A DNA stretch of 64,000 nucleotides, from sequence record PZ229304.1. The stretch is one strand, 5' to 3'. The number at the start of each line of letters is the position of its first letter. Within the stretch, counting starts at the first letter, position 1. Positions 849-30,790 of this stretch are shown one piece after another. The position numbers were made by a program, and so were the translations under genes. The notes beneath the pieces were generated by a model. That model worked only from the letters and a program-made list of their open reading frames with translations, was not told where the DNA came from and did no database searches. This DNA comes from a phage.

Positions 849-852
849 TTAA

Positions 853-874: not shown

Positions 875-889
875 AAAAGGAGTAGTAAA

Positions 890-2851: not shown

Positions 2852-2854
2852 TCA

Positions 2855-2879
2855 AAGCCCCTTCGGGGGCTTATTATTT
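2855..2879 (+). terminator. Rho-independent terminator-like hairpin (AAGCCCC-TTCG-GGGGCTT + T-rich)
   Basis: 7-bp stem, TTCG tetraloop, followed by TATTATTT; 4 nt after stop codon. Confidence 0.55.
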
Positions 2880-2890
2880 AAGGAGATTAA

Positions 2891-15631: not shown

Positions 15632-15642
15632 ATCGCTCCTTA

Positions 15643-16617
15643 TTAAAGACTTTCAATAACTTGACGACGCAGTTCATTGGCATCTGCAAGATTATAATTA
15701 AGACGAACGTGTTCTGCAAGCATCATACCACGATCTTCTGTGTATCTAGGGTTTCTCATTAGCTTCACAACTTCATAATGCCAAGATGCTTTAGAGTCTG
15801 CATAGATAACAGCCTTTGCATCTACCGGATTGAAGTACGGCAGCACAGGAGAACAGATAATAGGAAGACCCTTTGCACCTGCTTCCAAAATCTTCAAATT
15901 GCTTTTACAGTTGTTGAAGTCATTATCTACCAGAGGAGCAATTGCAATACTGTGACCGTCATACACAGACATATACTCACCTAAATTTTTAATAGCTGGT
16001 TTATACTGTGCATTTGGAATTTTACGTTTTACTTTAACCCACTCCGCAGTAGTTAGATACTGACTATTATTTCCAACAGGTGCAGAAGGATACACTTCAT
16101 ACCCTGCAATTGTCAATAGTGTATCATCAAATGTATTAGCTACAAGAGATAAATCAGGTTCATGGCTTGCTCCTCCAGCCCAAATAATAGGCGTGTCAGA
16201 ATAACGGTCTTTTGTCAAAGTAAATTGACCTTCGTCGTAAGGTAGTGCGTTTCTAATAACGACAACATTACGATTTAAATGACGAATTTTGTAAGCTAGG
16301 TATTCTGTTGTTACTGTAACAACATCTGCTAACTTAACCATTTCTACAATAGTCTTTGAATGATTAGTAAATACGCCAGCCATATAATGTTCAGGATTAA
16401 GTGAATAAAAGTCATCTAAATCAACAATAATCTTAACACCTTGTGCCTTCAGGCGTTTAACTTCGTCTGCTCCATGAGAATACACTCTATTAAAAACTAA
16501 AACGTCTTTCTTAGGTTTAAACGTATTTCCAGCAAATGGCATTACAATACGATGGTAATCACAACCACTGCCTAACTTATTATCACACTTAAGTACAGGA
16601 GTATTAGGATTTACCAT
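15643..16617 (-). CDS. Glycosyltransferase-like protein (GT-B fold, group-1-like), paralog B
   Basis: Paralog of 14687..15631; start set at the ATG at 16617 preceded by GAGGAGG (the ORF-track start at 16656 lacks an RBS). Confidence 0.5.
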   Translation of the reverse strand: MVNPNTPVLKCDNKLGSGCDYHRIVMPFAGNTFKPKKDVLVFNRVYSHGADEVKRLKAQGVKIIVDLDDFYSLNPEHYMAGVFTNHSKTIVEMVKLADVVTVTTEYLAYKIRHLNRNVVVIRNALPYDEGQFTLTKDRYSDTPIIWAGGASHEPDLSLVANTFDDTLLTIAGYEVYPSAPVGNNSQYLTTAEWVKVKRKIPNAQYKPAIKNLGEYMSVYDGHSIAIAPLVDNDFNNCKSNLKILEAGAKGLPIICSPVLPYFNPVDAKAVIYADSKASWHYEVVKLMRNPRYTEDRGMMLAEHVRLNYNLADANELRRQVIESL

Positions 16618-17290
16618 ATTTTTGAGCCTCCTCATAAGAGATAAAAGTTTTACCATTGCGAAGATCCTCCAGTGATTGTTTATATTGTTCCCAGTTTACA
16701 CCAATCCCCTGTTCTTTCTCTTCTTTTGACAGATTCGCAAAAGGTAAAGGATTGTCTCCAAACACATCGTCAGGATGGATAAACGCCATAATTCGAATAG
16801 GACATGGTACGCCTGGAATACCTCGGTTCAAACCTGCCAGCGGAACGCGCTGAATCCACTCTGCATCTTCATATCCATAACCGTGGGTGTATGAGCGGAA
16901 ATAGCCAGCTTTCTCAATAACTGCACGGGAATACATACCAAACTGGCACATCCCTAGTTCCCAAATAACCACTTCCCCTTCAATACCTTTTACTTTATCT
17001 TTAAAGTATTCAGGCATACCAAAGAAATCCCAACCATTTTCCTTCGCCTGTTTTACAAAATATGTTTCCCAACCTTGAACAACAGGATAACAATCATCAT
17101 CAAAAATAAACCAGTAATCATACCCTTCATCATAAAACTTTTTCATCAGTTCATTACGAGCATATGCAACACCTTTTCGTTCCCGATCATACTGTACAAC
17201 AAAAGTAGCATTAGGATCAGTCACAAGATAGTCTTTAAGAGGACGCTTACCTACAGTAATAACACCAACACCAATTTTTGTATTTTCCAA
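16604..17290 (-). CDS. Glycosyltransferase-like protein (GT-A-like, DxD motif)
   Basis: 228 aa; WFIFDDDCYP resembles the DxD nucleotide-sugar/metal-binding motif of GT-A enzymes; clustered with the two GT-B-like paralogs. Confidence 0.4.
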   Translation of the reverse strand: MENTKIGVGVITVGKRPLKDYLVTDPNATFVVQYDRERKGVAYARNELMKKFYDEGYDYWFIFDDDCYPVVQGWETYFVKQAKENGWDFFGMPEYFKDKVKGIEGEVVIWELGMCQFGMYSRAVIEKAGYFRSYTHGYGYEDAEWIQRVPLAGLNRGIPGVPCPIRIMAFIHPDDVFGDNPLPFANLSKEEKEQGIGVNWEQYKQSLEDLRNGKTFISYEEAQKYGKS

Positions 17291-17299
17291 AATAACTCC

Positions 17300-17863
17300 T
17301 TAAATAATTTTATTCATGTCTTGACAATGTAAAAGGTGTGAAACAGCTTTTCTAGGATCATCGTTACCTAAACGGTAGGTGTGAAATAAATATAACCCAC
17401 GTAGTAAACCTAGCCTTTTATTGTTAGCGTGTAATGCTTTAGAGAAAATTATATCAAACTGTATTGATCTTTCCTCAAAAGGGATTTCATTCCACAGACT
17501 CTTACGAAAGAGAAGAAAGAATCCTGCTAAGATAGCATCTGTAGGTACTTCCTCTATTGAGTTTCCCCATTCTAGATGTGCTCTTTTTGCAATCTCAATG
17601 TGGTGTAATATATTTGGATCTTCACTTCTTTCATTATTAAATAATTGATATGTTGATCCCAATCTATTACAAGATGCACCAAGAACATCAAAATCAGGAT
17701 TTGAACGAACTATTGATTCCAGCCAAGCAGGTTGTTCTGGAAGAAGAAACATTGTATCAATGTCTCTTAGGCAAATCCAACTATCTTCTGGTAAGACACT
17801 TATTGTGTCATTGATACCTTTTCCAATATCTCCAGAAAGATAGGGAGTTATGTGAAATATCAT
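17300..17863 (-). CDS. Hypothetical protein, possibly a fourth glycosyltransferase-like protein
   Basis: 187 aa; CLRDIDTMF DxD-like motif; weak. Confidence 0.3.
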   Translation of the reverse strand: MIFHITPYLSGDIGKGINDTISVLPEDSWICLRDIDTMFLLPEQPAWLESIVRSNPDFDVLGASCNRLGSTYQLFNNERSEDPNILHHIEIAKRAHLEWGNSIEEVPTDAILAGFFLLFRKSLWNEIPFEERSIQFDIIFSKALHANNKRLGLLRGLYLFHTYRLGNDDPRKAVSHLLHCQDMNKII

Positions 17864-18611: not shown

Positions 18612-19121
18612 TTAGCGATAGAATTGATGTTCTTTGTAGCGGTACACTAGAACCATATCTTTTTCCCAGTGTGCTCTTATTGTAGATTTTTTAAAGTATA
18701 ATGCTCCTTTTGTAATATCTAATGCAATTCGTAATTCTGGAAAATGCGTATCGAGATAAAGTAGACGTTCTGCTATAGCCTTAGCTTCCTTCCACTTATC
18801 ACGTTCCATAACGTTGAATGTCTTTGTGTAAGAGAATTGTCCTTTTTGAAACAAAACTTCTTTTATAGTATCAGGGAAATATGAATCTCTAGCCCTATTC
18901 AATACTACATTACCAACAGCAGACATACCGCGCTTTCCTTGATTACGACTTTCTGCATAGATTGCACAAGCTAATAGATTTTCTTTACTATCACGCTTTG
19001 TACACTTGTGAACTACTTTAGCAGTTTTTACGTTTGCAGCTTCGGCTTGCGCCACAACAGGTGTAAATGTAAAAGCAGTTAAGGATAGTAACGCAATTGC
19101 GACAAAGGTTTTTATTGACAA
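18612..19121 (-). CDS. Secreted cell-wall hydrolase, SleB-like (candidate endolysin)
   Basis: N-terminal signal peptide (MSIKTFVAIALLSLTAFTFTPVVAQA) then CAIYAESRNQ...MSAVGNVVLNRAR, which resembles the conserved core of SleB/Hydrolase_2 cell-wall hydrolases. Confidence 0.55.
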   Translation of the reverse strand: MSIKTFVAIALLSLTAFTFTPVVAQAEAANVKTAKVVHKCTKRDSKENLLACAIYAESRNQGKRGMSAVGNVVLNRARDSYFPDTIKEVLFQKGQFSYTKTFNVMERDKWKEAKAIAERLLYLDTHFPELRIALDITKGALYFKKSTIRAHWEKDMVLVYRYKEHQFYR

Positions 19122-19843: not shown

Positions 19844-19859
19844 GCGCCCCGAAGGGCGC
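19844..19859 (-). terminator. Hairpin GCGCCC-CGAA-GGGCGC downstream of the TerD-like gene
   Basis: 6-bp GC stem with tetraloop, T/A-rich flanks. Confidence 0.4.
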
Positions 19860-19880
19860 TATGATTTATTACTTGACGTA

Positions 19881-20477
19881 TTACTCGAACCAATCGTCGC
19901 CAGCGCCAAACGCTTTAACTACATCGTAAATGTCAAGCCCAGCTTTACCTACACCATATGCTTTCAGTTTCCATTCGCTATCTTCTCGCACCAGGGAGGC
20001 AACGTGGCAAATGGTGTTACCTGCAAGTTCTGGAGCCAAGAAGTCAAAGTCCAGCAGTTCAACATTACGTTCATCATCGAAGATTTTAAGGAAACCTTCG
20101 GTAGCGTGACCAAGGCGTTTCTTACCCGTTTCGTCATCAATAGTAATTACGAATGCAATTTCCTGTGCTTCAGCAGAGATATTATCCAGTGTAACATCAA
20201 TCTGCTCCATCTGTCCTACACCATCACGAACATCTTCACCTGCAAAAGTAGAACGTTCAGGATCAAATTTCTGCGCGTAGCACACCAGGTGACGAGGAGA
20301 CAACAGTTCCGGCAGACCAGATGCATTGTGTCGGCAAATCAGAGCACTAACATCCAGATCCAGTTTTTCGTTAGATTTCCAAGAGAATTCCAGACGAATG
20401 CGTTTCAGTGCTGGTGCGATCTTTTTCAGAGAAACTTTTTCGCTAGAACCTTTTTTCAGGGAAATTTTCTGAGTCAT
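19881..20477 (-). CDS. TerD-family protein (tellurium-resistance/stress-response TerD domain)
   Basis: 198 aa; segment-by-segment similarity to E. coli/plasmid TerD as recalled (ISLKKG..KVSL; DLDVSALIC; IAFVITIDD; FLKIFDDERNVELLDFDF; EWKLKAYGVG); AAGGAG RBS. Confidence 0.75.
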   Translation of the reverse strand: MTQKISLKKGSSEKVSLKKIAPALKRIRLEFSWKSNEKLDLDVSALICRHNASGLPELLSPRHLVCYAQKFDPERSTFAGEDVRDGVGQMEQIDVTLDNISAEAQEIAFVITIDDETGKKRLGHATEGFLKIFDDERNVELLDFDFLAPELAGNTICHVASLVREDSEWKLKAYGVGKAGLDIYDVVKAFGAGDDWFE

Positions 20478-20549
20478 AATTTATTATCTCCTTTGTTGTT
20501 AATTTACGTTGTCTATTTTACTAATCTTTTCTACAAAGTCAAGCGTTTT

Positions 20550-21344
20550 TTACGCTTTTGCTCCGAATTTTTTAACCCACTCACCAAACTCTTCGGATAG
20601 CAGTTTATCGTAAAGTTCTTCGTCAGACAAGGACAAATCTGCAATACCGATAAAATCAACATTATCGTATTCTTTTGCCAAGTCTTTCAAGAATTTAAAG
20701 TTTGCATTACCTACACCAACCATAAACCAGTAAACAGGAGTGTTGCGGTGTTTGTTCAGCAAACTACGTACTGCTGAAGTATCCATGTTCTCCCCGTCAG
20801 TTTGGAAGAAAATCATTGCAGGAGTACGATCAACTTGTGCATCAGTATCTACAACCTGCTCTACAACAGTACGTGTTACTTCTACAAGTTCTTTTTTACC
20901 AGTTAGTTTAGCAAGGAAACCTTTAGCCGGAACTTCTTCATACTCAACGACTTCGCGTGTAATATTTTTCATAGGTACACTACCGAAGTATGTATCATAG
21001 ATCTCTTGCATTACTGGAGCATAGGCTGTACCACCGTTGATGCAAACATTAGACATGCAAGAGCCGACATAATCATCATACACATCAGCCGTTGCAGGAG
21101 GCAGTTCAAAAGAAGAACTATTGAAAGCCCACATGTCAATCTGTGCATTATCATCAAACTTCATACCAAACGGCAGCAGTTTACCTACAAAATCACTAAC
21201 AGTGCCATCACGATATAGCTCACACATACTACCCGAAATATCTAAGGCGCTACCGACACGAAGAACAACATCGTTAATCTTTTTCTTACGCAGAGATACA
21301 GTAAGAGTTTCTTGACGTTTTTTAAGACTGATTTTATTGGACAT
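20550..21344 (-). CDS. von Willebrand factor A (vWA) domain protein, TerY-like
   Basis: 264 aa; MIDAS-type motif DISGSM near N-terminus followed by vWA-like hydrophobic/polar pattern; immediately upstream of the TerD-like gene, as in ter loci. Confidence 0.6.
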   Translation of the reverse strand: MSNKISLKKRQETLTVSLRKKKINDVVLRVGSALDISGSMCELYRDGTVSDFVGKLLPFGMKFDDNAQIDMWAFNSSSFELPPATADVYDDYVGSCMSNVCINGGTAYAPVMQEIYDTYFGSVPMKNITREVVEYEEVPAKGFLAKLTGKKELVEVTRTVVEQVVDTDAQVDRTPAMIFFQTDGENMDTSAVRSLLNKHRNTPVYWFMVGVGNANFKFLKDLAKEYDNVDFIGIADLSLSDEELYDKLLSEEFGEWVKKFGAKA

Positions 21345-21345
21345 A

Positions 21346-21615
21346 TTATTTCTCCTTTCTGACTATAATGTTAGTAACTTCTAAATCCACTTCTACCACT
21401 TCTGTATCATATAAAATACAGTTAAGTTGACCTCTTTGTGAACCGTTCAGACACATTGCTTGGTTTGTATTAACCTTAATAAACACTAAGTTTATGAACG
21501 TATCTAAACCAGAATCTTGATAGGCAACATAATATACGAATGTATCACCTGCGTCAAGTTCTCCAAAACATTTAGGTTCATCTGATTTGTCGTCTTTGAT
21601 GTTAAATTTAAGCAC
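21346..21615 (-). CDS. Hypothetical protein
   Basis: 89-aa ORF in array. Confidence 0.35.
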   Translation of the reverse strand: MLKFNIKDDKSDEPKCFGELDAGDTFVYYVAYQDSGLDTFINLVFIKVNTNQAMCLNGSQRGQLNCILYDTEVVEVDLEVTNIIVRKEK

Positions 21616-22171
21616 TGTCTTCTCCTTTACCTGCTCTCAAGCCTAAATAGAAAGCCTCTCTGGTGATCTTTTGCAACTCGTTTAAAGCGATAGTTACAAC
21701 TAAATCATCTTCAATTTCTAGCTTTGAGTCTTCTTCTGTCTCAATGCAAGTATTATGCACTTTGTGGTAAGGATTGTCAACACGTTTAAATTTATTATTT
21801 TCAGTGCTGAAGAAGCAATCTGGATCTTCTTCCCCATCACCCAAACCCTGGTTAGGATCTTCTTCAGATCTTTCTGTTGGGATCTCACCTGTAAAGTGCT
21901 CTTCTAATACCAGAGCAATCCCATCTCCAAGATCGGAAGAGAACATCAAATTACAAACTTCTTCCCAAGGCATAGACCACTTAAATCTTTTACGATTACC
22001 ATGTTTATCTTCTTCGTTAGAGAAAACACTACCATAGCTATCATAATTCCCATACATCTCTTCGACAACCTTACCACCTTTCAAAAGAAATAGGTAGCAA
22101 GGAGAGCCATCGAAAGAGGTAGAAAGAGCAGCATTACCAGACTCTTTGCACAAGAAACTAAAACACCCCAT
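21608..22171 (-). CDS. Hypothetical protein (acidic)
   Basis: 187-aa ORF. Confidence 0.4.
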   Translation of the reverse strand: MGCFSFLCKESGNAALSTSFDGSPCYLFLLKGGKVVEEMYGNYDSYGSVFSNEEDKHGNRKRFKWSMPWEEVCNLMFSSDLGDGIALVLEEHFTGEIPTERSEEDPNQGLGDGEEDPDCFFSTENNKFKRVDNPYHKVHNTCIETEEDSKLEIEDDLVVTIALNELQKITREAFYLGLRAGKGEDSA

Positions 22172-22371
22172 TATACACCAGCCTTAAGATCAATTAAAGC
22201 CAAAGTTGTTTCAGAGTGTGTTTGCTCGTCTACAGGTGCAGTCATATGATAATACAAAAAATCTTCGGCATCATACCAATCTGACTCTTGACCTTGTTTC
22301 CAACCATCAATGAAAGCATCTTCCATAATTGTTTGTAACTCTTCACGAGTTAAGTGAATATCTTTACTCAT
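22171..22371 (-). CDS. Hypothetical protein
   Basis: 66-aa ORF with start/stop overlap to neighbours. Confidence 0.35.
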   Translation of the reverse strand: MSKDIHLTREELQTIMEDAFIDGWKQGQESDWYDAEDFLYYHMTAPVDEQTHSETTLALIDLKAGV

Positions 22372-22604
22372 TACACATTCTCCTCTTTTACCAATTCCAT
22401 CGTTGAACTATCAAAACCATCTTTAGAAGAATAGGTATAGACAGAACGTAGTTCGCGCAGGACAGTGAATACATTAGGATCATCTAACCAAGCATCCTGG
22501 AGGAGAACATAACGATCTTCATTGTCGTACTGGACAGCAATCATAGAACCAGACAGTTTGTAAATTTTAATATTCATAATATATTTCTCCTTAAAGTAGA
22601 CCAC
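22371..22604 (-). CDS. Hypothetical protein
   Basis: 77-aa ORF. Confidence 0.35.
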   Translation of the reverse strand: MVYFKEKYIMNIKIYKLSGSMIAVQYDNEDRYVLLQDAWLDDPNVFTVLRELRSVYTYSSKDGFDSSTMELVKEENV

Positions 22605-23694
22605 GTTTAACAGTTTGAATCATGCCATCTTCAAGAGATTGCACTTCTTGAATGTAATCAATACGAGCAGCACGGGCTTCAGTGTTGATTCGGTTAGTTT
22701 CTTCCAACATTTTAACTAAGTTTTCTTGATCACGACGTAATGTTTCAATATCCAACACTTGACGATTAGCAAGTTGTGTAGCTTCAATTTGGTTTTGTGC
22801 AGCAAGATCACTACCCATTGCAATAGCAGCATTAAATTCATTCAGTACATTGTTCTGTGTATCGGCTGCTTTCTTCTGGCGTAGACTTTCAATATACATA
22901 GAAAAGTTTGCAGAGTAAGCAGGAATAACATTATTCACAATATTACGGGCTGATCGCATCAAACTTGCAGATACTTTCTGCATACTTTGTACACGTGGCC
23001 CCATCTGAACACACAGTAAGCGTAGGGCTTTCAGGTCTGCAATACGAATTTCAAGCAGATCCATAGTATCACGAGTACGTTGACGCTCTTCTACCTCATT
23101 TTCAGGCAGTGTATTAAGGCGAACTTCTTCTTTTTCATAAGTAGCTGTTAGAAGCTCTATATCTCTGTTTAAGCTAAGAGCATATTTGGCAATAGCCTCT
23201 TCTAAACGTTGCAGATATCGTAAAGAATCTTCTTCTTTTTTCAAGTCTGTTTGGAGTGTCTTTACCAAACCTTCAATACGATTATTGATGGTGTCAAATT
23301 CTCCAAACAAATCTTCTTTCATACCTAATACTTTCTTAACTAACTTACCTAAACCTTTAGATTGTTTAATAGAATTAGGATCAAGTTGCTTTGCTTGCTT
23401 AATAAGTGCAGTTAAACGTTCACTCATTTCATCTCCCTGAGATGAACGCTGGTGTTTAAGCACTTCAGCATTAAGGTTACGAAGAGTAAGTCCTGCATCA
23501 GCACCAACCTGTTCAATCTCTTCACGAGACATTGGAGGCAGCATTTGTACAGGTCGTGCAACAGCAGGGGCATATACAGGACTTGCATCCATAGCAGTTG
23601 GAGCAAACAAAGACTTACTTTTTTCTGTTGTTGCCGTGAATACACTCATTTCAGACGGTTTGCTTTTTACGGCACTGATAAAAGGACTGGACAT
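22591..23694 (-). CDS. TelA/KlaA-like (toxic anion resistance family) coiled-coil protein, tentative
   Basis: 367 aa, predominantly coiled-coil, size and composition compatible with TelA; assignment leans on genomic context (TerD, vWA, TerC neighbours) rather than a recognised signature. Confidence 0.4.
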   Translation of the reverse strand: MSSPFISAVKSKPSEMSVFTATTEKSKSLFAPTAMDASPVYAPAVARPVQMLPPMSREEIEQVGADAGLTLRNLNAEVLKHQRSSQGDEMSERLTALIKQAKQLDPNSIKQSKGLGKLVKKVLGMKEDLFGEFDTINNRIEGLVKTLQTDLKKEEDSLRYLQRLEEAIAKYALSLNRDIELLTATYEKEEVRLNTLPENEVEERQRTRDTMDLLEIRIADLKALRLLCVQMGPRVQSMQKVSASLMRSARNIVNNVIPAYSANFSMYIESLRQKKAADTQNNVLNEFNAAIAMGSDLAAQNQIEATQLANRQVLDIETLRRDQENLVKMLEETNRINTEARAARIDYIQEVQSLEDGMIQTVKRGLL

Positions 23695-23762
23695 TCAATT
23701 TCCTCCATATTCTTTAGTAGATGGTGATACCTCTGTACCACCATCATAACACAAATTAAGTA

Positions 23763-24614
23763 TTAAACAAACATATCTAAATAATTTGTAGTAATAAACG
23801 CCCCATCTGCTTCCAGATTAACATAACCAGTAGCATTAGTGGTTAAGAAATCCAGATCGAAGGACTCTTTAACACCCCGTACCTCAACACGAGAGATATC
23901 GAATACAGGTAGTGTAACAGCCTCTTCGTGCAATACCGTACCTTTGTAGGTTGCCTTAATGATAAACTTGATATTACCCGTTCCAGCATCATACAAAACA
24001 CTTTCAAACCCTTTGAGAGTATATTTATCACCAGAAGTGAAGTGCAAAGTTGCTTTGTTTACAGTACGTTTTTTACGAGGAGTTCCTTTCACACGTTTAT
24101 GATCACTACGTTTTTTGTATTTAGGAATGAATACAAACGATACACTCTCAAGAAAGGTATCAACATCAAGGATTTTAATATCCTCTGTTGCAGCAAATTT
24201 TGAAGTCGTTGCATCAAAATGCTTTTCCCTGCGATCATACATAAAGATATCAAACCGATCTTCTAAATCAAACAAATTATGTATTTTAATTTCAGAATGC
24301 TTGCGCATTGCAGCAACCTTGAACTCTTCAAAACGTGGGTGTTCTACAAGTTCTTCAAGTTTTACACCAAAGACAGTATATTGCTTCGGAGTTTTTTCTG
24401 GTGTTGGCATTACAGAAGCATAATCCCCGATTGCGCTCTTAAAGCAAAATTGTTCTTGACCTGTATTTTTACCAACGAATTTACAGTATTCGTCATCGTG
24501 CATACTTTCCTGGGTAGTACCAACAAACTCAAAACCATCTTTATTCTTCTCAAGAATTTCTTGATTAAAGATCCAACCTTCCAGGCGATACACTTTACCA
24601 ACTTCTAGTTTCAT
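23763..24614 (-). CDS. Hypothetical protein
   Basis: 283-aa ORF. Confidence 0.4.
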   Translation of the reverse strand: MKLEVGKVYRLEGWIFNQEILEKNKDGFEFVGTTQESMHDDEYCKFVGKNTGQEQFCFKSAIGDYASVMPTPEKTPKQYTVFGVKLEELVEHPRFEEFKVAAMRKHSEIKIHNLFDLEDRFDIFMYDRREKHFDATTSKFAATEDIKILDVDTFLESVSFVFIPKYKKRSDHKRVKGTPRKKRTVNKATLHFTSGDKYTLKGFESVLYDAGTGNIKFIIKATYKGTVLHEEAVTLPVFDISRVEVRGVKESFDLDFLTTNATGYVNLEADGAFITTNYLDMFV

Positions 24615-24649
24615 CTGTTTCTCCTTCTTATTTAATCTGTATTAAATTA

Positions 24650-25240
24650 TTAACGACGACGTGAGCTACTAAAACTACGTTTCGACGAAGAATAACTTTT
24701 CGAAGACTTACTATAAGAGCTAATAGGACTTGAGTAAGACTTACGAGCAGAGTAATCACTATTCACTTTTGTTGTTGATGGGCGTGAATACGTTTGTACA
24801 CTTTGCTGCTTAATTGTGTTTTGTTTAGTTGTTGTATATGTATTCCCTTGTTTATCATAAAAACTATGCTTTTGTGTTGTATATGCTTTACTATTAGTTG
24901 CAGGAGCAGCATTGTTATTAATAATGGTTGTATTGCTACCACCATCTCTATAACCACCACCGCCACTATTACCACTCAACATATGACCAAGAAGCATACC
25001 TGTAGCAAAGTCACCTACACCAGAAGAACCACTGCCGCCTCCTTGAACAACAACTGTTGAAGGTTGTGCAGGTGCTGCTTGAACAACTTGAGGTGCAGGT
25101 TGATTTACATATTGTTCATCTACCATCTGATTTGGTGTTTGTTGGTAACGTTGATTTTGTACATTTTCAGAATCATCACAACCTACCAGCAATGCACTAC
25201 CTAAAACAACTGCAACAATAAAAGATTTAATGTTTTTCAT
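24650..25240 (-). CDS. Lipoprotein with glycine-zipper-like and Ser/Tyr/Lys-rich low-complexity regions
   Basis: Start set at MKNIKSF (GAGAGGG RBS); signal peptide with lipobox LLVGC; Gly-rich stretch GSGSSGVGDFATGMLLGHMLSGNSGGGG; C-terminal SYSKSSKSYSSSKRSFSSSRRR. Confidence 0.5.
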   Translation of the reverse strand: MKNIKSFIVAVVLGSALLVGCDDSENVQNQRYQQTPNQMVDEQYVNQPAPQVVQAAPAQPSTVVVQGGGSGSSGVGDFATGMLLGHMLSGNSGGGGYRDGGSNTTIINNNAAPATNSKAYTTQKHSFYDKQGNTYTTTKQNTIKQQSVQTYSRPSTTKVNSDYSARKSYSSPISSYSKSSKSYSSSKRSFSSSRRR

Positions 25241-25433
25241 TTGTAACCCTCTCATTTAAAGTCTCAACACAATTTTTAAAATCCCTAGAGAAACAATACA
25301 TCTGCTCTCCGTTCCTGTTGATAGTAATTGTATGGTTATCAATATATGTTGTCAAGATAAAAATTAAACAAAACAACCCTAAAGCAAAACAAATATTTTC
25401 AAACAGAATCCAAAGAACACGTAAAACCACCAT
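25227..25433 (-). CDS. Small membrane protein (hypothetical)
   Basis: 68 aa with one hydrophobic span; overlaps lipoprotein start by 14 nt. Confidence 0.3.
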   Translation of the reverse strand: MVVLRVLWILFENICFALGLFCLIFILTTYIDNHTITINRNGEQMYCFSRDFKNCVETLNERVTNEKH

Positions 25434-25448
25434 CAGATCACCTCAATA

Positions 25449-25466
25449 AAGCCCCCGAAGGGGCTT
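25449..25466. terminator. Hairpin AAGCCCC-CGAA-GGGGCTT
   Basis: 7-bp perfect stem between TerC-like gene and small membrane gene. Confidence 0.4.
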
Positions 25467-25472
25467 AATGAA

Positions 25473-26450
25473 TTAAGCAACAGCCTGGTCTTCTTTTTCA
25501 GGGAAGATTAAACTTGCAAGAACACCCAGCCCAAGAGTACCTAACACAATATACATACTGATCGTCGGGTCAATGTGTGCTGGCAGGAAACTCATTTTTG
25601 CGTGCAGAGTTTCTGCAAACGGATGATACATCAGTTTTACACCCACAAATACCAGGACTACGATAACTGCTTTCTCCAGATGAACCAAATATTTCAGTGC
25701 AACACTAAGAACAAAGAACAGAGCACGTAAACCTAAGATTGCACAGAGCATCGAAGAGAACACCAGCAGAGGTTCTTGTGTCACTGCAATTACTGCTGGA
25801 ACAGAGTCTACTGCAAAGATTACGTCAACCATTTCCATTACAAACACACAAACCAGAGCCGGAGTTGCTACACGAACACCATTTTTGATTGTGAAGAACT
25901 TCTCACCATCCATCTGATCAGATACAGGGAACAGCTTACGAACAATGCGAGTAGCCCAGTGTTTAGAGTAATCAACTTCTGCATCATTATCTCCAGCGAA
26001 TACCATTTTAGCCGCACAGAAAAGGATGACAGCACCGAAGAAGATATTAACATACCAGCCCAAACTCAACAAGTAAGTACCTACTGCTACAAACACACCT
26101 CGGAAGACAATCGCACCTGCAATACCCCAAAGTAGAATCTTGTGTTGCAAGTGTGTGCTTTTAATACCAAAACTTGCGAATACTGCCACAAATACTACTA
26201 AGTTATCTACAGAAAGAGATTTCTCCAACACATACCCACTCAAAAACAAGCTCGCAAAATCAGCACCGTGTTGGAAGTATACAAAACCATAGTAGGCTAA
26301 TGATACCCCAATCCAGAAAATTGACCAACCAATTGCAGATTTAAATGAAATTTCTTTGTTTTCTCTGTGTCCAAAGAAATCAATACAAATCGACAACACT
26401 AAAATACCCACTAAAACAACCACATCAATAATTGGGAAACCCAGTTGCAT
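25473..26450 (-). CDS. TerC-family integral membrane protein
   Basis: 325 aa, multiple TM segments; LSVDNLVVFVAVFASFG matches the conserved TerC SxDN motif region. Confidence 0.7.
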   Translation of the reverse strand: MQLGFPIIDVVVLVGILVLSICIDFFGHRENKEISFKSAIGWSIFWIGVSLAYYGFVYFQHGADFASLFLSGYVLEKSLSVDNLVVFVAVFASFGIKSTHLQHKILLWGIAGAIVFRGVFVAVGTYLLSLGWYVNIFFGAVILFCAAKMVFAGDNDAEVDYSKHWATRIVRKLFPVSDQMDGEKFFTIKNGVRVATPALVCVFVMEMVDVIFAVDSVPAVIAVTQEPLLVFSSMLCAILGLRALFFVLSVALKYLVHLEKAVIVVLVFVGVKLMYHPFAETLHAKMSFLPAHIDPTISMYIVLGTLGLGVLASLIFPEKEDQAVA

Positions 26451-26527
26451 TCTTTCCTCCTCTTTAATGCGGAGGACAATCCTCCGCTCTATGTCTTATA
26501 CTATAAACTGTTTTTAAAGAAAGTCAA

Positions 26528-26776
26528 CTAGTTCAGTTCTGTAATTTTAAGTTTATCTTCTTTGTTAATGATAGGGAAAGCTACAGCATCACCTACATCA
26601 TCAATAAAGCAAATAGCAAGACCACCTTCCACTTTGCTAACCTGACCGTTAAAGGCATGATACGGGGCAGGAACTTCATCCCCATCTTCAATGAGAATAG
26701 CCTCGTAAACCTTGCCGATAGTACAATCACGGGTGTTTATAAATTTTTCAAGCACTTCAACATTTACTTTACGCAT
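26528..26776 (-). CDS. Hypothetical protein
   Basis: 82-aa ORF. Confidence 0.35.
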   Translation of the reverse strand: MRKVNVEVLEKFINTRDCTIGKVYEAILIEDGDEVPAPYHAFNGQVSKVEGGLAICFIDDVGDAVAFPIINKEDKLKITELN

Positions 26777-26790
26777 ATAAAGATCCTCTC

Positions 26791-26997
26791 TTATTTGTTA
26801 GATTGAAAGATACCACGAAGTACCGCAAGAATGAACGTCACACAGACTACACTCCAAAACGTTACAGGAACATGATGCCAGTCTAAGCCGATAATGTCAA
26901 TCATATAGTTGTATGCTAAAAGCAGTAACCAACTAGGGATTAACACAATCAAGAACACAACAATAAAACAACCTAATACTGCTAAAACACCTGCCAT
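26791..26997 (-). CDS. Small membrane protein (two predicted TM helices)
   Basis: 68 aa, almost entirely hydrophobic. Confidence 0.35.
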   Translation of the reverse strand: MAGVLAVLGCFIVVFLIVLIPSWLLLLAYNYMIDIIGLDWHHVPVTFWSVVCVTFILAVLRGIFQSNK

Positions 26998-27006
26998 ACT
27001 TTCTCC

Positions 27007-27723
27007 TTATTTCAGTTTGTAAACAATTACATTTAAACCTTTGTTCACTAGAGTTTCTTCGATCATAAGTTTTACAATATTCCAAGAACCTCCAGCCAAA
27101 CCACAACCAAGCATTGGTAAACCTACAATTTTACCGCCTGAAGATACAACATCGTCTCCCATACTATCTAACGCATTGTAGATAGCTTCATAATCCAGGT
27201 CACGCTTACCTTCCTCACGACGACTATAACCATATTGTCCATATAAATTATAAATTGTCAAATTGTTTTCTGTATACTTAGTAAACGTACCTAATTTTTT
27301 ATAATCACCACGTTTAGTGGCACAATCTGCTTTAAACGCACCAGGCCACTTGCTTTTAATTTTTGGTGCAATACCACTACCCATAGTGCAAAAACAGTTA
27401 CAGCAGTGTGCTATAGCGTCTATATCGCCTCTCTCGGCTGCTGCTAAAAGATCACCGTATACCTCAATGATACCTGCTGGATAACTTGTTACAATTTCAT
27501 CTTCCCAATACATTTTCTCTACACCACCGATCAGTGCAAAGTTTTGTGTAATGCGATCATCAATATAGTTAAGACCTGAAACATACACAGCATATTCATC
27601 CTGTGCTGTAATGCCTTGTACACGAATTCTTAAGACACCATCTTTATCTGTTGCTACGCGCCCAAAATCTTTTTCTGTAATATTGGTGATAGGATCTCCG
27701 AAAGTCATTACTTTATTAGACAT
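27007..27723 (-). CDS. Macro-domain-like protein (ADP-ribose binding/processing)
   Basis: Start set at MSNKV (AAGGGGA RBS, 8-nt overlap with upstream gene); DIDAIAHCCNCFCTMGSGIA resembles the macro-domain AIVNAAN...GGGGV(D)GAI region and GKIVGLPMLGCGLAGGSW the downstream FPxIStG-like region. Confidence 0.5.
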   Translation of the reverse strand: MSNKVMTFGDPITNITEKDFGRVATDKDGVLRIRVQGITAQDEYAVYVSGLNYIDDRITQNFALIGGVEKMYWEDEIVTSYPAGIIEVYGDLLAAAERGDIDAIAHCCNCFCTMGSGIAPKIKSKWPGAFKADCATKRGDYKKLGTFTKYTENNLTIYNLYGQYGYSRREEGKRDLDYEAIYNALDSMGDDVVSSGGKIVGLPMLGCGLAGGSWNIVKLMIEETLVNKGLNVIVYKLK

Positions 27724-28573
27724 AATAATCCCCTTTAACATTAGATTTGTTGATAATGTTGCTTTCAAAAAATTGACGCAGGAAATCAAAGTTCTCTTTG
27801 TATTTTTCAATATTATTGTAACCTTCTGCAAGGCAACCAAAGAACAGTTGTTCTACATAATACAAAGGAAGTTGTGAAAGTGCAATTTTAAAATCAACTT
27901 CGCTTTGACTCATTAGATACTTAATAGGACGAACCAAACATTTAGCATCAGTTTCTTGCTTAATCATTTTAATAAAAGCTGCCAGGTTATTGATATAGTT
28001 GAAGTTAAGTGCAGCTTCGGTGTTGGCTTCTGTACCTTCATACTTTGCAAAGTACAGGAAAAACGTATCGTTTTCAACACCTTCTTTGTCTAAAATTTCA
28101 ATAAGTTTTTCTTCGTGTGTTCCTGTAATATTAACATCATCAATGAAAATCAGAGTTTTATTACCCCAGAAATCACGATTGATAGAGAAAGTGTCACCAT
28201 CGATCAAAGCCTTACGATCTTCTTTGCTAAGAAATCCATAATCATTGATATAACTCACTTTACGATGAACGATATCCCACTCCACTGCTTTACCTCCTTT
28301 GATAGAGATTAGGTAGTTGAGGTGATCTACAAAATGCTCAGATAACACTGTAGCTGCATTTTTCACATAATTATATGGAGATGGAATAACAACAAAACTT
28401 TCATTTACTAGTCGTTCTTCATATTTAGAAAAGAAACTTTCAGCCAGAATGCGTCCCATTCTTTTTGCTGCCTGGTTACTGCCAAACTTTAGTTTGGAAT
28501 AATCTGCAATGTTAAATTTTGCTTCCTTCAGGTTAGTAAAAGTATTAGCAAAATGTTGAATTTGATTACGCAT
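27716..28573 (-). CDS. Phosphoribosyltransferase (type I PRTase fold) domain protein
   Basis: 285 aa; KTLIFIDDVNITGTHEE matches the PRPP-binding motif (hydrophobic-hydrophobic-DD-x-x-TG-x-T) of type I PRTases. Confidence 0.5.
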   Translation of the reverse strand: MRNQIQHFANTFTNLKEAKFNIADYSKLKFGSNQAAKRMGRILAESFFSKYEERLVNESFVVIPSPYNYVKNAATVLSEHFVDHLNYLISIKGGKAVEWDIVHRKVSYINDYGFLSKEDRKALIDGDTFSINRDFWGNKTLIFIDDVNITGTHEEKLIEILDKEGVENDTFFLYFAKYEGTEANTEAALNFNYINNLAAFIKMIKQETDAKCLVRPIKYLMSQSEVDFKIALSQLPLYYVEQLFFGCLAEGYNNIEKYKENFDFLRQFFESNIINKSNVKGDYYV

Positions 28574-29222
28574 TAATAAGTTCCTCTTTTTTAAGTTTAG
28601 CCAACAAGTCTTCTGGATTAATAATATGACAGAACTTCATCCCTATGTCAACAGCTTTTCCATCATAAATCAAACTATCTCCAACGTGTAAAATCTCCTC
28701 TGGTGCGAGATCAAACGTTACCATTTCATCAAAAGAGAGTTTAAAAAACCTAGGATCTGGTTTACACAAGCAAAACTCGTCAGAAAAATGCATAAAGTCG
28801 AATGGTAATTTTGTTAAACCAGAATATACAGCTAAGAAACTACCTGGTACAAAATTAGTATTACTCTTAATACTCAAAGAGTAGGTTGAACTTAGCTCTT
28901 CCAACTTCTTGCAAAGTTCAGGATTCAATGTTGGAGGATGTTTTATAAACATTGCTAAACAGTCTCTTTTTAACCCATCCACTTTATCAAGATCAATATT
29001 CAAATGAGTAGAAAGTGTTTCCCAAGCATTCCTAGACGTTCCACAAATTCCTTTTTCTGCTTTTAAATCCAGGAGAGTTTTTACCTCTTTATATACGGTA
29101 GCTGCTTCTGCTTCAGAACAAGAGGCATACTCGGCAATAACCTTGTTGCGTTCTTCTGCATACAAAGGATTAGCAGTAATAAGAGTATTCCATACATCAA
29201 AAGAAATATGCTTAACAGTCAT
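28566..29222 (-). CDS. HAD-superfamily hydrolase-like protein
   Basis: Start set at MTVKH (GGAGG RBS); motif-I-like FDVWNTL (nucleophile Asp, second Asp replaced by Asn) and motif-IV-like VGDSLIYDG; 8-nt overlap with PRTase gene. Confidence 0.45.
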   Translation of the reverse strand: MTVKHISFDVWNTLITANPLYAEERNKVIAEYASCSEAEAATVYKEVKTLLDLKAEKGICGTSRNAWETLSTHLNIDLDKVDGLKRDCLAMFIKHPPTLNPELCKKLEELSSTYSLSIKSNTNFVPGSFLAVYSGLTKLPFDFMHFSDEFCLCKPDPRFFKLSFDEMVTFDLAPEEILHVGDSLIYDGKAVDIGMKFCHIINPEDLLAKLKKEELINA

Positions 29223-29391
29223 TTTTAATCCTCCGTCCAAAAGAATATCATCTGCTTAATTTTATTGATCTCTTGATGTAGTAACTTTCCAGCATGTGAT
29301 TGATCTTTAATATTGACAGCAAGAATTTCAAGCTCCGTTAGTTTTTCCTGGATAGCTTTATATTCATCATCTGTAAGCATTTTCTTCCCCT

Positions 29392-29583
29392 TTAGAATGG
29401 TAATCTTTGTATGTCACTTATACCCACACCAAGAAGTCTAGCAATATCCTTATCTAAAAGCAACTCTTTTTGTTCTAAAATGTTAATCAGATCTCCTAAT
29501 ACTTCTTTAATATCACGATCATTTTTAGCAACGTGACCACCTGCGGTATCAACTTTATCTTTAAAAACAAAATAATGATCCAT
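29392..29583 (-). CDS. Hypothetical protein
   Basis: Start set at the internal ATG preceded by GGAGGG. Confidence 0.3.
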   Translation of the reverse strand: MDHYFVFKDKVDTAGGHVAKNDRDIKEVLGDLINILEQKELLLDKDIARLLGVGISDIQRLPF

Positions 29584-29602
29584 AATACCCTCCATATAAA
29601 TA

Positions 29603-29626
29603 AAGGAGGCTTTCGCCTCCTTTTAT
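29603..29626 (-). terminator. Terminator hairpin AAGGAGGC-TTTC-GCCTCCTT after the ATPase gene
   Basis: 8-bp perfect stem; T-run follows on the minus strand. Confidence 0.5.
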
Positions 29627-29629
29627 CAC

Positions 29630-30790
29630 TTAGTAAGAACGACCACCAAACACATACTCTGTGTAGTTTTTACGTTCTTTGTTTTTAATAACAACTTCAA
29701 TGTTGTTGCCTTTATCATCGGTGAACACAAAGTGATAACCGTCACCACCCATTGTACGGATGTGTTTTTCATCATACGTCAGCAAGATACGGTCTACACC
29801 CCAGTAGTAGTCACCTTCTTCGTCTTTATCTTCTACGGTAACTACTCCTTCCATTTCAGGAAGATGCTCTTCTCCTGACTTATGATCTACAGCTACAACA
29901 TAACGATTACCGCTAAACAAACCTTGTGCTGTCATACCGTCAATATCTGTATCTGACGAAACATCTCCTGTACGATCTACACCGTTAACTTTCAGAAGTT
30001 TAACTTCTTTTGCAGCATAGCGGTGTTCAGTGATACTGATACCCATTAATGCAAGTGCATCAGAGAATTTGTCATTAGGGTAACGGTTAAGTTCTTCTAC
30101 TAAGGACTGAACAATATCAAAGTTCAAATCCACGGAAAGATTATAAAGCGTTTCAAAATCTGGTAAAAAGGCTTTGTTCTCCAGATTTTTAGCCAGATAG
30201 TCATCCATAGTAGCTTTAGGTAGTTTCTTATAGCTAAAGCTGTAGAAAATACGGCTAGGACGATTACGCAAAAATTCTGATACATAACCATCATTTTTAG
30301 TCAATACAAACAGCTTGTCGTAGCCACCTACACCATCCAGCAGGGTAAGCAAACCATCTTGTGCATCTTTTTCAGCATACAGTTTATCAAATTCATCGAT
30401 CATAATCATCACAGGCTGTGTGATTTTAGACATAAAATTGATAAAGCCTTCACCATTAAAAGCACTACCGATAGAAATAGTAGGAATACCCATTTCACGA
30501 AGAGCAGAAGACAGCATTTTAGCTTGCAAAGTTTTACCGCTACCTTTCGTACCCTCAAGGAGAACGCCTGTGTTTTTACCTTTGCGGCTAAGGAACGTCT
30601 TGATAATACGTTCTGATTTATCATCAGTATCACCGTATGTTACTGAAGGGACTTCCATATCGTTTTTAGGATACAGGAAGAACTCGCCACTTTGAGTAAC
30701 ACCTACACCAAAAGTTCCTGCTGGAATTTCTTCAATATCTGTACCAGATTTCTGACGCAGGAAGATTTGATTGCCGAATACTGTAAACAT
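29630..30790 (-). CDS. P-loop ATPase (AAA+-like), paralog 1
   Basis: 386 aa; Walker A GTKGSGKT, Walker B IMIDEFDK, LTKN sensor-like and NRPSRIFY (SRC-box-like) motifs; paralogous to 45807..46934. Confidence 0.55.
   Translation of the reverse strand: MFTVFGNQIFLRQKSGTDIEEIPAGTFGVGVTQSGEFFLYPKNDMEVPSVTYGDTDDKSERIIKTFLSRKGKNTGVLLEGTKGSGKTLQAKMLSSALREMGIPTISIGSAFNGEGFINFMSKITQPVMIMIDEFDKLYAEKDAQDGLLTLLDGVGGYDKLFVLTKNDGYVSEFLRNRPSRIFYSFSYKKLPKATMDDYLAKNLENKAFLPDFETLYNLSVDLNFDIVQSLVEELNRYPNDKFSDALALMGISITEHRYAAKEVKLLKVNGVDRTGDVSSDTDIDGMTAQGLFSGNRYVVAVDHKSGEEHLPEMEGVVTVEDKDEEGDYYWGVDRILLTYDEKHIRTMGGDGYHFVFTDDKGNNIEVVIKNKERKNYTEYVFGGRSY

What the first reader, a model, noticed from the sequence alone, without database searches (positions are those of the whole stretch)
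19881..26450. Phage-borne Ter-like stress-response module: TerD, vWA (TerY-like), TelA-like and TerC
Four linked minus-strand genes show the hallmarks of tellurite-resistance (Ter) families: a TerD-domain protein (19881-20477) alignable segment-by-segment to TerD, a vWA protein with a DISGSM MIDAS motif (20550-21344), a 367-aa coiled-coil TelA-sized protein (22591-23694) and a TerC-type membrane protein with the LSVDN motif (25473-26450). Ter loci are known as plasmid/chromosomal stress systems, and the IncHI2 ter operon is classically linked to a phage-inhibition phenotype. A compact version inside a lytic-phage replication block is unexpected and could serve superinfection exclusion, envelope-stress control during infection, or interference with a host Ter-type defence.
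Basis: partly seen in the sequence, partly recalled or inferred. Interest (0 to 1): 0.85.

Follow-up and report, generated by a model that had tools for sequence, protein, structure and literature searches.

The report
Known Ter stress module in phi92-like phage
The four tellurite-resistance-type (Ter) genes are really there, but this block has been annotated in phi92-like E. coli phages since 2012 and discussed in the phage literature, so it is a correct but already known observation whose function in phages is still untested.

Summary
All four family calls hold. TerD (PF02342, E 5e-28), TelA (PF05816, E 5e-34) and TerC (PF03741, E 1e-38; TerC/Alx subfamily TIGR03718) pass curated cut-offs. 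So does the vWA protein, but it is the TerF-C-terminal type (PF10138, E 1e-38), not TerY.

The window is a phi92-like Justusliebigvirus, 98.9% identical to a deposited genome. More than 100 deposited Stephanstirmvirinae genomes carry the block. The 2012 phi92 record already labels these genes as stress, toxic-anion or tellurium resistance proteins.

The tools added four points:
- The unit is larger, about 19844-29623 between two hairpins. It also holds a ComF-like PRTase (PF15610), a HAD hydrolase, a TARG1-like macro domain, a small HTH protein, small membrane proteins and a lipoprotein.
- HAD→PRTase_3 is an autonomous two-gene cassette. It occurs alone in rhizobia and jumbo phages and joins Ter genes only in some lineages.
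- The Ter genes are under purifying selection (dN/dS 0.01-0.16).
- One relative (JLBYU50) has naturally lost PRTase+HAD.

I found no experiment on function. Verdict: real and correctly identified, but not novel.

The parts
29602..29623 (-). Terminator-like hairpin (9-bp stem with a T-rich tail) just downstream of the AAA ATPase gene. It is the proposed upstream boundary of the unit.
29392..29595 (-). 67-aa protein, the orthologue of phi92 gp189, which the depositors annotated as a predicted helix-turn-helix putative regulator. It is the first gene after the hairpin and is conserved at 49% in Phapecoctavirus ESCO13.
29225..29380 (-). 51-aa ORF of unknown function. It lies 2 nt upstream of the HAD gene.
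28566..29222 (-). HAD-superfamily hydrolase of 218 aa, counted from the ATG at 29222 as annotated in phi92. Motif I is FDVWNT, so the nucleophile Asp is present but Asp+2 is a Trp. The best solved relative is P. horikoshii 2OM6, which has the same motif.
27716..28573 (-). ComF-like phosphoribosyltransferase, PRTase_3 PF15610 (E 1e-41). The PRPP loop hhhhDDVxITG is invariant across five phage lineages. The gene overlaps HAD by 8 nt.
27007..27723 (-). Macro-domain protein of 238 aa from the ATG at 27723. The macro fold covers about residues 85-237 and is TARG1/SCO6735/BT1257-like. The ~85-aa N-terminal extension is absent in Phapecoctavirus. The gene overlaps the PRTase gene by 8 nt.
26791..26997 (-). 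68-aa small membrane protein with two hydrophobic segments. It is 60% conserved in ESCO13.
26528..26776 (-). 82-aa ORF of unknown function, absent in ESCO13.
26469..26527 (-). TerC leader in the 77-nt gap before TerC. It holds a promoter-like site TTGACT-16-TATAGT (26527-26500) and then the hairpin GCGGAGGA-ttg-TCCTCCGC (26487-26469), which has no U tail. There is no riboswitch.
25473..26450 (-). TerC/Alx-subfamily polytopic membrane protein. It is 48% identical to terZABCDEF-type plasmid TerC and 37% identical to E. coli Alx.
25227..25433 (-). 68-aa single-pass membrane protein. It is 49% conserved in ESCO13.
24650..25240 (-). Predicted lipoprotein with a signal peptide and lipobox LLVG|C. 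The mature part is low-complexity and rich in Gln, Ser and Gly. It is the orthologue of phi92 gp180.
23763..24614 (-). 283-aa protein of unknown function (PHROG 27504). It is only partly conserved in ESCO13.
22591..23694 (-). TelA-family protein (PF05816, PHROG 5890 'tellurite resistance'). It has no hydrophobic segment.
21346..22577 (-). Chain of four tightly packed small genes of 68, 66, 187 and 89 aa, with junctions of -1, -1 and -8 nt and a 1-nt gap to vWA. The 187-aa protein belongs to a widespread unannotated family that is not Ter-linked elsewhere.
20550..21344 (-). vWA protein of the TerF C-terminal type (PF10138) with MIDAS motifs DxSGS and TDG.
19881..20477 (-). TerD-domain protein (PF02342). 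The DLD motif is kept, but the acidic Ca2+ loop is degenerate. A promoter-like site (20542-20515) lies in the 72-nt gap upstream.
19844..19859 (-). GC-rich hairpin with a UUCG tetraloop, 21 nt after the TerD stop codon. It is the proposed downstream boundary of the unit.

Best explanation
**What it is (shown).** This is the conserved Ter-type accessory block of phi92-like myoviruses (Stephanstirmvirinae). Its core is a quartet that recurs in unrelated phages:
- an inner-membrane TerC/Alx-type metal-ion transporter;
- a soluble TerD beta-sandwich protein;
- a TerF-type vWA protein with an intact MIDAS metal site;
- a long helical TelA protein.

In this lineage the quartet lies next to a translationally coupled HAD-PRTase_3-macro trio, small membrane proteins and a lipoprotein.

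**How it most likely works (inferred by homology, not shown).** The block is transcribed with the replication and nucleotide-metabolism genes. TerD, vWA and TelA assemble under the inner membrane around TerC and change ion flux and membrane stability in the infected cell. This protects the ongoing infection from membrane-directed insults. Those insults would be superinfecting phages, pore-forming colicins and membrane-attacking abortive-infection effectors, which are the phenotypes classically tied to plasmid ter operons. The HAD-PRTase_3 pair is predicted to make a ribosylated base or nucleoside-like small molecule that may modulate the complex, but it is a separable add-on.

I put identity and membership at about 0.95. 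The protective-membrane mechanism is about 0.4, which is the confidence given below.
For: **Family membership.** All four proteins are above curated cut-offs. MIDAS and TerC motifs are conserved.

**Cell location.** TerC is polytopic, while TerD, vWA and TelA have no hydrophobic segment.

**The genes are functional.** dN/dS is 0.014-0.089 against a 98%-identical relative and 0.088-0.156 against a different genus.

**Synteny.** Gene order is kept across two genera.

**The quartet recurs independently.**
- Otagovirus phiPsa374 has TelA-x-vWA-TerC-TerD in its early region.
- The phage-like contig L023 has TerC, TerD and vWA-TerF identified; TelA was not detected there.
- phiKp34 carries the same genes.

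**Link to the PRTase pair.**
- HAD/PRTase and PRTase/macro overlap by 8 nt each.
- L023 has HAD-PRTase_3 directly after its Ter genes.
- The classical plasmid ter locus also carries a PRTase-containing block.

**Literature.** The published model of Ter components and the superinfection hypothesis are in PMC7824862. The classical phage-inhibition and colicin phenotypes of R478 ter are as cited in PMC9796965 and PMC8386662.
Against: - I found no experiment on any phage ter gene.
- No protein matches a known defence-system model apart from a weak hit of the macro domain to DarG.
- TerB and TerZ/TerA of the classical operon are absent.
- The TerD acidic Ca2+ loop is degenerate in this lineage.
- HAD-PRTase_3 stands alone, far from any Ter gene, in rhizobia, Rhizobium phages, XaC1, CcrColossus, L022 and L024. 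It is lost in the viable phage JLBYU50. The small-molecule link is therefore weak.
- Expression timing is inferred from position only. Promoter-like sites are not enriched over shuffles.
Confidence: 0.4

Rival explanations
1. **Metal-homeostasis auxiliary gene set.** The phage TerC acts as a Mn2+ (or Zn2+/Ca2+) exporter like Alx or the Bacillus TerC proteins, with TerD, vWA and TelA as metal-binding accessories. It would tune cytoplasmic metal levels for phage enzymes, or supply metal to the phage's exported proteins: the signal-peptide cell-wall hydrolase at 18612-19121 and the lipoprotein at 24650-25240.
For: - TerC falls in the TerC/Alx 'metal homeostasis' subfamily above its cut-off.
- E. 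coli Alx is annotated as a Mn2+ exporter and is 37% identical, with both signature motifs conserved.
- Papers on TerC-family Mn export and metal chaperoning, and on Klebsiella TerC and zinc, were listed (PMC10197570, PMC12096827, PMC12054061).
- Exported phage proteins are encoded in and next to the block.
Against: - There is no Mn2+ riboswitch or any other Rfam element.
- The phage TerC is closer to the ter-operon TerC (48%) than to Alx (37%).
- This reading does not explain why TelA and the TerF-type vWA travel with TerC in unrelated phages.
- No metal measurement exists.
Confidence: 0.25
2. **Counter-defence module.** The macro domain removes ADP-ribose marks laid down by host toxins such as DarT. 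PRTase_3 and HAD rebuild or destroy a nucleotide used in host immunity. The Ter proteins interfere with a host Ter-type or membrane-acting defence.
For: - The macro domain is TARG1/DarG-like (PADLOC DarG E 2e-13; NCBIfam DarG E 7e-13; PDB 5E3B and 4J5Q).
- It is translationally coupled to PRTase_3.
- phiPsa374 places its Ter genes a few kb from a nicotinamide PRTase and a PRPP synthase.
Against: - The DarG match is far below the equivalog cut-off (48.6 against 250 bits) and covers the macro fold only.
- The macro gene is adjacent to HAD-PRTase_3 only in Stephanstirmvirinae. In XaC1 a macro gene lies about 8 kb away, and it is absent near the pair elsewhere.
- The common laboratory host K-12 has no terZABCDEF operon to counteract (my own knowledge, not tested here).
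- There is no experimental support.
Confidence: 0.15
3. **Literal tellurite or xenobiotic resistance.** The genes confer resistance on the infected or pseudolysogenic host, as an auxiliary stress gene set.
For: - Database labels say 'tellurite resistance'.
- The idea is raised in PMC7824862 and PMC11256456.
Against: - These are virulent phages with short infections.
- TerB, TerZ and TerA are absent.
- Authors of phage papers judge resistance unlikely from incomplete sets (PMC9796965; PMC11256456).
- Tellurite is rare in the relevant habitats, as noted in the abstract of PMC11003894.
Confidence: 0.05
4. **Decaying passenger DNA.** The genes have no current role in the phage.
For: One relative has lost part of the neighbouring stretch and is still viable.
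Against: - There is strong purifying selection on all four Ter genes.
- Reading frames and motifs are intact in more than 100 genomes of two genera.
- Every gene has a good ribosome-binding site.
Confidence: 0.02

Closest known systems
Ter block of phage phi92 (gp172-gp189) and of Phapecoctavirus phAPEC8/ESCO13
   Same: These are the same genes in the same order. DNA identity is 98% to Justusliebigvirus records. Protein identity to ESCO13 is 81% (TerD), 67% (vWA), 78% (TelA), 71% (TerC), 65% (PRTase) and 48% (HAD).
   Different: Nothing of substance differs from phi92. Phapecoctavirus lacks the AAA ATPase, the macro N-terminal extension, orf200 and most of the 283-aa protein.
Classical plasmid/chromosomal terZABCDEF operon (IncHI2 R478 type; here Pantoea pPSP-057)
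   Same: TerC is 48% identical over its full length. A TerD-domain protein and a TerF-type vWA are present. A PRTase-containing gene block lies next to the Ter genes.
   Different: The phage has no TerB, TerZ or TerA. TerD and vWA are separate genes rather than the fused TerF. The phage has TelA, which the plasmid locus shown lacks. It uses PRTase_3+HAD instead of PRTase_2+TRSP, StiP+PELOTA and the C-C lyase.
Phage Ter systems described by Iyer et al. 2021 (Acinetobacter vB_AbaM_ME3; Caulobacter jumbo phages) and in phiPsa374 / phiKp34
   Same: The component list is the same: TerC, TerD, TerF-vWA and TelA, with or without PRTase and HAD. The hypothesis of competition with superinfecting phages is also the same.
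   Different: These are other phage lineages with different gene orders. phiPsa374 has the quartet without HAD-PRTase_3. Caulobacter phage CcrColossus has HAD-PRTase_3, with no Ter gene within 9 kb on either side.
E. coli Alx and Bacillus TerC-family proteins (Mn2+ export / metal loading)
   Same: They share the TerC/Alx subfamily, conserved signature motifs and a polytopic topology.
   Different: Identity is only 37%. There is no Mn2+ riboswitch leader. The phage protein is embedded with TerD, TelA and vWA partners.

Membership tests
TerD (PF02342) | Profile match above Pfam's gathering score over the whole domain | tested here: met
   98.2 bits against 25.3, profile positions 3-178 of 187. 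It aligns end to end with the solved TerD structures 2KXT and 3IBZ.
TerD (PF02342) | Acidic Ca2+-binding loop GDNRTGEGDGDDE plus the DLD motif (motif recalled from the Klebsiella TerD structure work) | tested here: inconclusive
   DLD is kept. The loop reads GED-VR--DGVG--QME, so only 3 of 6 acidic columns are kept and two residues are deleted. ESCO13 shows the same pattern. Other phage TerDs (L023, phiPsa374) keep far more of it.
TerC/Alx (PF03741, TIGR03718) | Profile match above the curated cut-offs, polytopic membrane protein, paired signature motifs (ExSLSxDN and DSxPA) | tested here: met
   PF03741 at 133 bits against 27.8. TIGR03718 at 323 bits against 246.4. Both motifs align with Alx. 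There are multiple hydrophobic segments.
TelA (PF05816) | Full-length profile match above the gathering score | tested here: met
   118.3 bits against 30, profile positions 13-330 of 332. PHROG 5890 'tellurite resistance' at E 2e-136.
TerF-type vWA (PF10138) | Profile match above the gathering score and MIDAS motif DxSxS with the downstream T/D | tested here: met
   133.8 bits against 29.4. LDISGSM aligns to LDASGSM and FFQTDGE to VFITDGG of Pantoea TerF.
TerY / TerY-P defence triad | Generic vWA (PF00092-type) TerY with a partner PP2C phosphatase and Ser/Thr kinase | tested here: not met
   PF00092 is below its cut-off (22.8 against 23.8). No kinase or phosphatase was found among the 20 block and flanking proteins scanned with Pfam. 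There is no PADLOC hit.
Complete terZABCDEF operon | Presence of TerB and of the TerZ and TerA paralogues alongside TerC, TerD and TerE | tested here: not met
   There is no TerB-family hit and only one TerD-domain gene in the block. Compare the plasmid locus.
Ter-associated biosynthetic module (Anantharaman et al. 2012, as summarised in PMC7824862) | PRTase plus HAD-fold enzyme encoded with the Ter genes | tested here: met
   PF15610 at 143.5 bits against 28.7 and PF00702 at 27.8 against 26.4, directly upstream of TerC. The same linkage is seen in L023.
Ter-associated biosynthetic module (Anantharaman et al. 2012, as summarised in PMC7824862) | The further enzymes of the classical set (C-C lyase, StiP/PELOTA, PRTase_2+TRSP) | tested here: not met
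   They are present in the plasmid locus but absent from the window's block.
HAD phosphatase | Motif I DxDxT with the Asp+2 general acid (established HAD enzymology) | tested here: not met
   Motif I is FDVWNT, so the nucleophile Asp is present but position +2 is Trp. 2OM6 has the same motif, and the next-best relatives are 2-haloacid dehalogenases. Fold membership is met, but phosphatase chemistry is not assured.
DarG antitoxin | Equivalog-level match and a partner DarT toxin | tested here: not met
   48.6 bits against a cut-off of 250, covering the macro fold only. No DarT-like neighbour was found.
Known anti-phage defence systems (PADLOC-DB 2.0) | Any module protein matching a defence-system model | tested here: not met
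   There are no hits for TerD, vWA, TelA, TerC, PRTase or HAD.

The most novel reading that the evidence does not exclude
A virulent phage builds its own Ter membrane complex (TerC, TerD, TerF-type vWA, TelA). In this lineage the complex is gated by a small ribosylated molecule made by the HAD-PRTase_3(-macro) cassette. The phage uses it offensively, to shield the infected cell against superinfection and membrane-attacking host immunity. This would give the first defined function and ligand for the long-enigmatic Ter system. The idea is already published as a hypothesis. Only its demonstration, and the identity of the PRTase_3 product, would be new.
Probability: 0.2. Interest if true: 0.6.

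Novelty: already known. Interest (0 to 1): 0.27.

Why it matters
What Ter systems do has been an open question for decades, and virulent phages that keep a reduced quartet under purifying selection are a tractable place to answer it.

This window adds no new discovery, because the genes are annotated in over a hundred deposited genomes and are discussed in the literature. The work here gives three practical handles:
- **Boundaries.** The unit is defined as about 19844-29623.
- **Separability.** HAD→PRTase_3 is a separable cassette that also occurs in rhizobia and jumbo phages.
- **A natural mutant.** JLBYU50 lacks PRTase and HAD.

Tried and rejected
- **Mn2+ riboswitch before TerC.** Rfam at gathering threshold over the whole window gave no hit. 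The leader holds only a promoter-like site and a plain hairpin.
- **Known defence systems.** PADLOC matched only the macro fold, weakly, to DarG.
- **Hidden Ter components among the unannotated genes.**
  - Pfam and NCBIfam gave nothing.
  - The best-conserved one (187 aa) belongs to a widespread family that is not next to Ter genes elsewhere.
  - The afdb50 library was not available.
- **Operon mapping by promoter consensus.** 43 sites against 35.9 ± 5.8 in shuffles, so not informative. Only the hairpins and gene junctions were used.
- **Recent capture of TerC from the host.** Rejected, because identity to Alx is only 37%.
- **PRTase_3 as orotate PRTase, as some records label it.** No support. 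The only family hit is PF15610, and there is no match to a solved PRTase.
- **Papers not held.** Anantharaman 2012 (PMC4104200) and Schwarzer 2012 (PMC3457257) could not be read. Their content is cited only through papers that summarise them.
- **Uninformative literature searches.** One search was too generic. Searches for PF15610/PRTase_3 and for Stephanstirmvirinae plus macrodomain found nothing.

Full report
**Observation.** The four minus-strand ORFs are at the stated coordinates. All four family calls pass curated thresholds in Pfam.

| Gene | Coordinates | Family | E-value |
|---|---|---|---|
| TerD | 19881-20477 | PF02342 | 5e-28 |
| vWA | 20550-21344 | PF10138, vWA-TerF-like | 1e-38 |
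| TelA | 22591-23694 | PF05816, near full length | 5e-34 |
| TerC | 25473-26450 | PF03741 | 1e-38 |

TerC is also a full-length member of the NCBIfam TerC/Alx subfamily (323 bits against a cut-off of 246). The generic VWA model falls just below its cut-off. The vWA protein is therefore the TerF C-terminal type rather than TerY. Its DISGSM and TDG motifs align with the MIDAS residues of a real TerF. The LSVDN and AVDSVPA motifs of TerC align with those of E. coli Alx.

**Where the window comes from.** The region is 98.9% identical to Escherichia phage vB_Eco_J-01. It is 97.7% identical or more, over its full length, to dozens of Justusliebigvirus (phi92-like) genomes. In all, 55 records cover at least 80% of the query at 95-99% identity, and 52 more match at 80-90%, mostly Phapecoctavirus. 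Several 'Campylobacter phage' records are about 98% identical and are probably mislabelled. DNA polymerase, primase/helicase, four glycosyltransferases and a cell-wall hydrolase lie on one side. Anaerobic ribonucleotide reductase and a UvrD-type helicase lie on the other.

**Novelty.**
- The original phi92 record already labels gp172 'putative stress protein', gp178 'putative stress / toxic anion resistance protein' and gp182 'putative membrane bound tellurium resistance protein'.
- The same record labels gp186 'putative orotate phosphoribosyltransferase' and gp187 'putative hydrolase'.
- A 2015 study lists RAST calls of TerD and tellurite resistance for Phi92_gp172, gp173 and gp178 (PMC4690881).
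- Iyer et al. 2021 describe Ter systems in jumbo 'and certain other related smaller tailed phages'. They give the component model: PRTase and HAD for signal synthesis, TerB/TerD as sensors, TerC in the membrane, and TelA with the TerF vWA as sub-membrane structures. They propose use against superinfecting phages or for xenobiotic tolerance (PMC7824862).
- Warring et al. 2022 report terC, terD, terF and telA in phiPsa374 and note that such genes are widespread in phages (PMC9796965). phiKp34 is described likewise (PMC8386662).
- I found no experiment on a phage ter gene.

**The unit is larger than reported.** Immediately upstream of TerC lie three further enzymes:
- a macro-domain protein (27007-27723; PF01661 E 3e-7);
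- a ComF-like PRTase (27716-28573; PF15610 E 1e-41);
- a HAD hydrolase (28566-29222; PF00702 E 4e-6).

These three overlap by 8 nt at each junction. The macro domain is closest to SCO6735, BT1257 and TARG1/OARD1. Its match to DarG is far below the equivalog cut-off.

A 67-aa protein that the phi92 depositors annotated as a predicted HTH regulator heads the stretch. It sits just after a terminator-like hairpin at 29623-29602. A UUCG-tetraloop hairpin follows the TerD stop codon at 19859-19844. TerC has its own promoter-like site and leader hairpin in a 77-nt gap, but no riboswitch.

From TelA to vWA, six genes are packed with gaps of no more than 13 nt, and three of the five junctions overlap. 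The interspersed genes include two small membrane proteins and a lipoprotein with lipobox LLVG|C. I therefore place the unit at about 19844-29623. This is an inference from hairpins and junctions. Promoter-like matches are not enriched over shuffles.

**Conservation.** Phapecoctavirus ESCO13 keeps the order TerD, vWA, TelA, TerC, macro, PRTase, HAD, and most of the small genes between them. Nei-Gojobori estimates for TerD, vWA, TelA and TerC give dN/dS of 0.014-0.089 against JLBYU50. Against ESCO13 they give 0.088-0.156. These are working genes, not decaying cargo.

**Is the PRTase-HAD pair really part of the Ter system?** The answer is mixed.
- **The pair is fixed.** HAD sits directly upstream of PRTase_3 in every locus examined:
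  - four phage lineages;
  - every bacterial locus in which the upstream sequence was available, 15 of the 16 returned, mostly rhizobia and including plasmid pRL10;
  - three metagenomic contigs.
- **Ter genes are near the pair only in some.** These are Stephanstirmvirinae, the phage-like contig L023 (TerC-x-x-TerD-x-vWA_TerF-x-x-HAD-PRTase_3) and two Bacteroidota genomes.
- **A related arrangement.** The classical plasmid ter locus has a different PRTase set: PRTase_2+TRSP, StiP+PELOTA and a C-C lyase.
- **The pair is dispensable.** JLBYU50, a plaque-forming relative, has lost macro residues 1-108, PRTase, HAD, two small ORFs and the AAA C-terminus.

HAD→PRTase_3 is therefore an autonomous cassette that has joined Ter genes more than once but is separable from them. 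The recurrent phage core is the quartet, as in phiPsa374.

**Residue-level caveats.**
- The TerD of this lineage keeps the DLD motif, but its acidic loop is degenerate: GED-VR--DGVG--QME against GDNRTGEGDG--DDE. Other phage TerDs keep far more of that loop.
- The HAD enzyme has FDVWNT as motif I, so Asp+2 is Trp, as in P. horikoshii 2OM6. After 2OM6, the natural solved relatives are mostly 2-haloacid dehalogenases. The usual label 'phosphatase' is therefore not assured.
- The PRPP loop of PRTase_3 is invariant across five phage lineages.
- The phage TerC is closer to plasmid TerC (48%) than to host Alx (37%).

**Mechanism.**
- **Shown:** family membership, intact motifs, membrane against soluble character, synteny and purifying selection.
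- **Inferred:** the proteins form a sub-membrane complex around TerC that alters ion flux and membrane stability. This would protect the infected cell from superinfection, colicins or membrane-acting immunity. The HAD-PRTase_3 product would be an optional modulator. I give this about 0.4.
- **Rivals:** metal homeostasis (0.25), counter-defence (0.15), literal tellurite resistance (0.05) and passenger DNA (0.02, contradicted).

**Side observation.** The 187-aa protein between TelA and vWA has a well-conserved ~135-aa N-terminal domain with an invariant MGCFSxxC start. The search returned 132 homologues, none with a Pfam domain. It is not Ter-linked elsewhere. Its confident predicted structure has no PDB fold match.

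**Verdict.** The module is larger than reported. It is already annotated and discussed in the literature, and its function remains a published, untested hypothesis. Interest is low to moderate.

Noticed in passing
window ~27400-29860 vs L001 (JLBYU50, OK272470.1): One otherwise 98%-identical phage has a ~2.5-kb natural deletion. It removes macro residues 1-108, PRTase_3, HAD, two small ORFs and the AAA C-terminus, and it joins the AAA N-terminal part to the macro domain. This is either a ready-made mutant or an assembly artefact.
   Followed up: partly
[not shown]
   Followed up: yes
L003-L024 (Rhizobium, Xanthomonas and Caulobacter phages; rhizobial genomes incl. plasmid pRL10; Bacteroidota MAGs): HAD directly followed by PRTase_3 (PF15610) is a fixed two-gene cassette across very different genomes. 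Its product is unknown. In XaC1 and L022 a ~530-aa gene follows it; in L022 that gene matches DUF2828/DUF7788.
   Followed up: partly
window 28566-29222 (-): The HAD enzyme has Trp instead of the Asp+2 general acid (motif I FDVWNT). After 2OM6, its natural solved relatives are mostly haloacid dehalogenases. The database label 'phosphatase/hydrolase' may misstate its chemistry.
   Followed up: partly
window 26469-26487 and 19844-19859: There are two stable GC-rich hairpins on the coding (minus) strand. One is in the TerC leader, and its 3' arm (TCCTCC) could also pair with the TerC Shine-Dalgarno sequence. The other is a UUCG tetraloop right after TerD. Neither has a classical U tail.
   Followed up: partly
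window 18612-19121 (-) and ~14800-17863 (-): Just downstream of the block lies a signal-peptide SleB-type cell-wall hydrolase (PF07486). Beyond it is a run of genes that relatives annotate as four glycosyltransferases. Their substrates, DNA or envelope, are unknown.
   Followed up: no
phage records MG065639, MG065645, MG065656, MG065689: Records named 'Campylobacter phage' with host C. jejuni are about 98% identical to this E. coli phage lineage. They are probably mislabelled or come from contaminating phage.
   Followed up: no
window 29630-30790 (-): A 386-aa AAA-type ATPase borders the unit in Justusliebigvirus but has no counterpart in Phapecoctavirus ESCO13. The phi92 record places a 'hypothetical tRNA' on the opposite strand inside this gene, but Rfam found no RNA family anywhere in the window.
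   Followed up: partly
L030 (phiPsa374) 1-3675: In phiPsa374 the Ter quartet lies a few kb from a nicotinamide PRTase and a PRPP synthase, which are NAD-salvage-type genes. The association may be coincidental.
   Followed up: no
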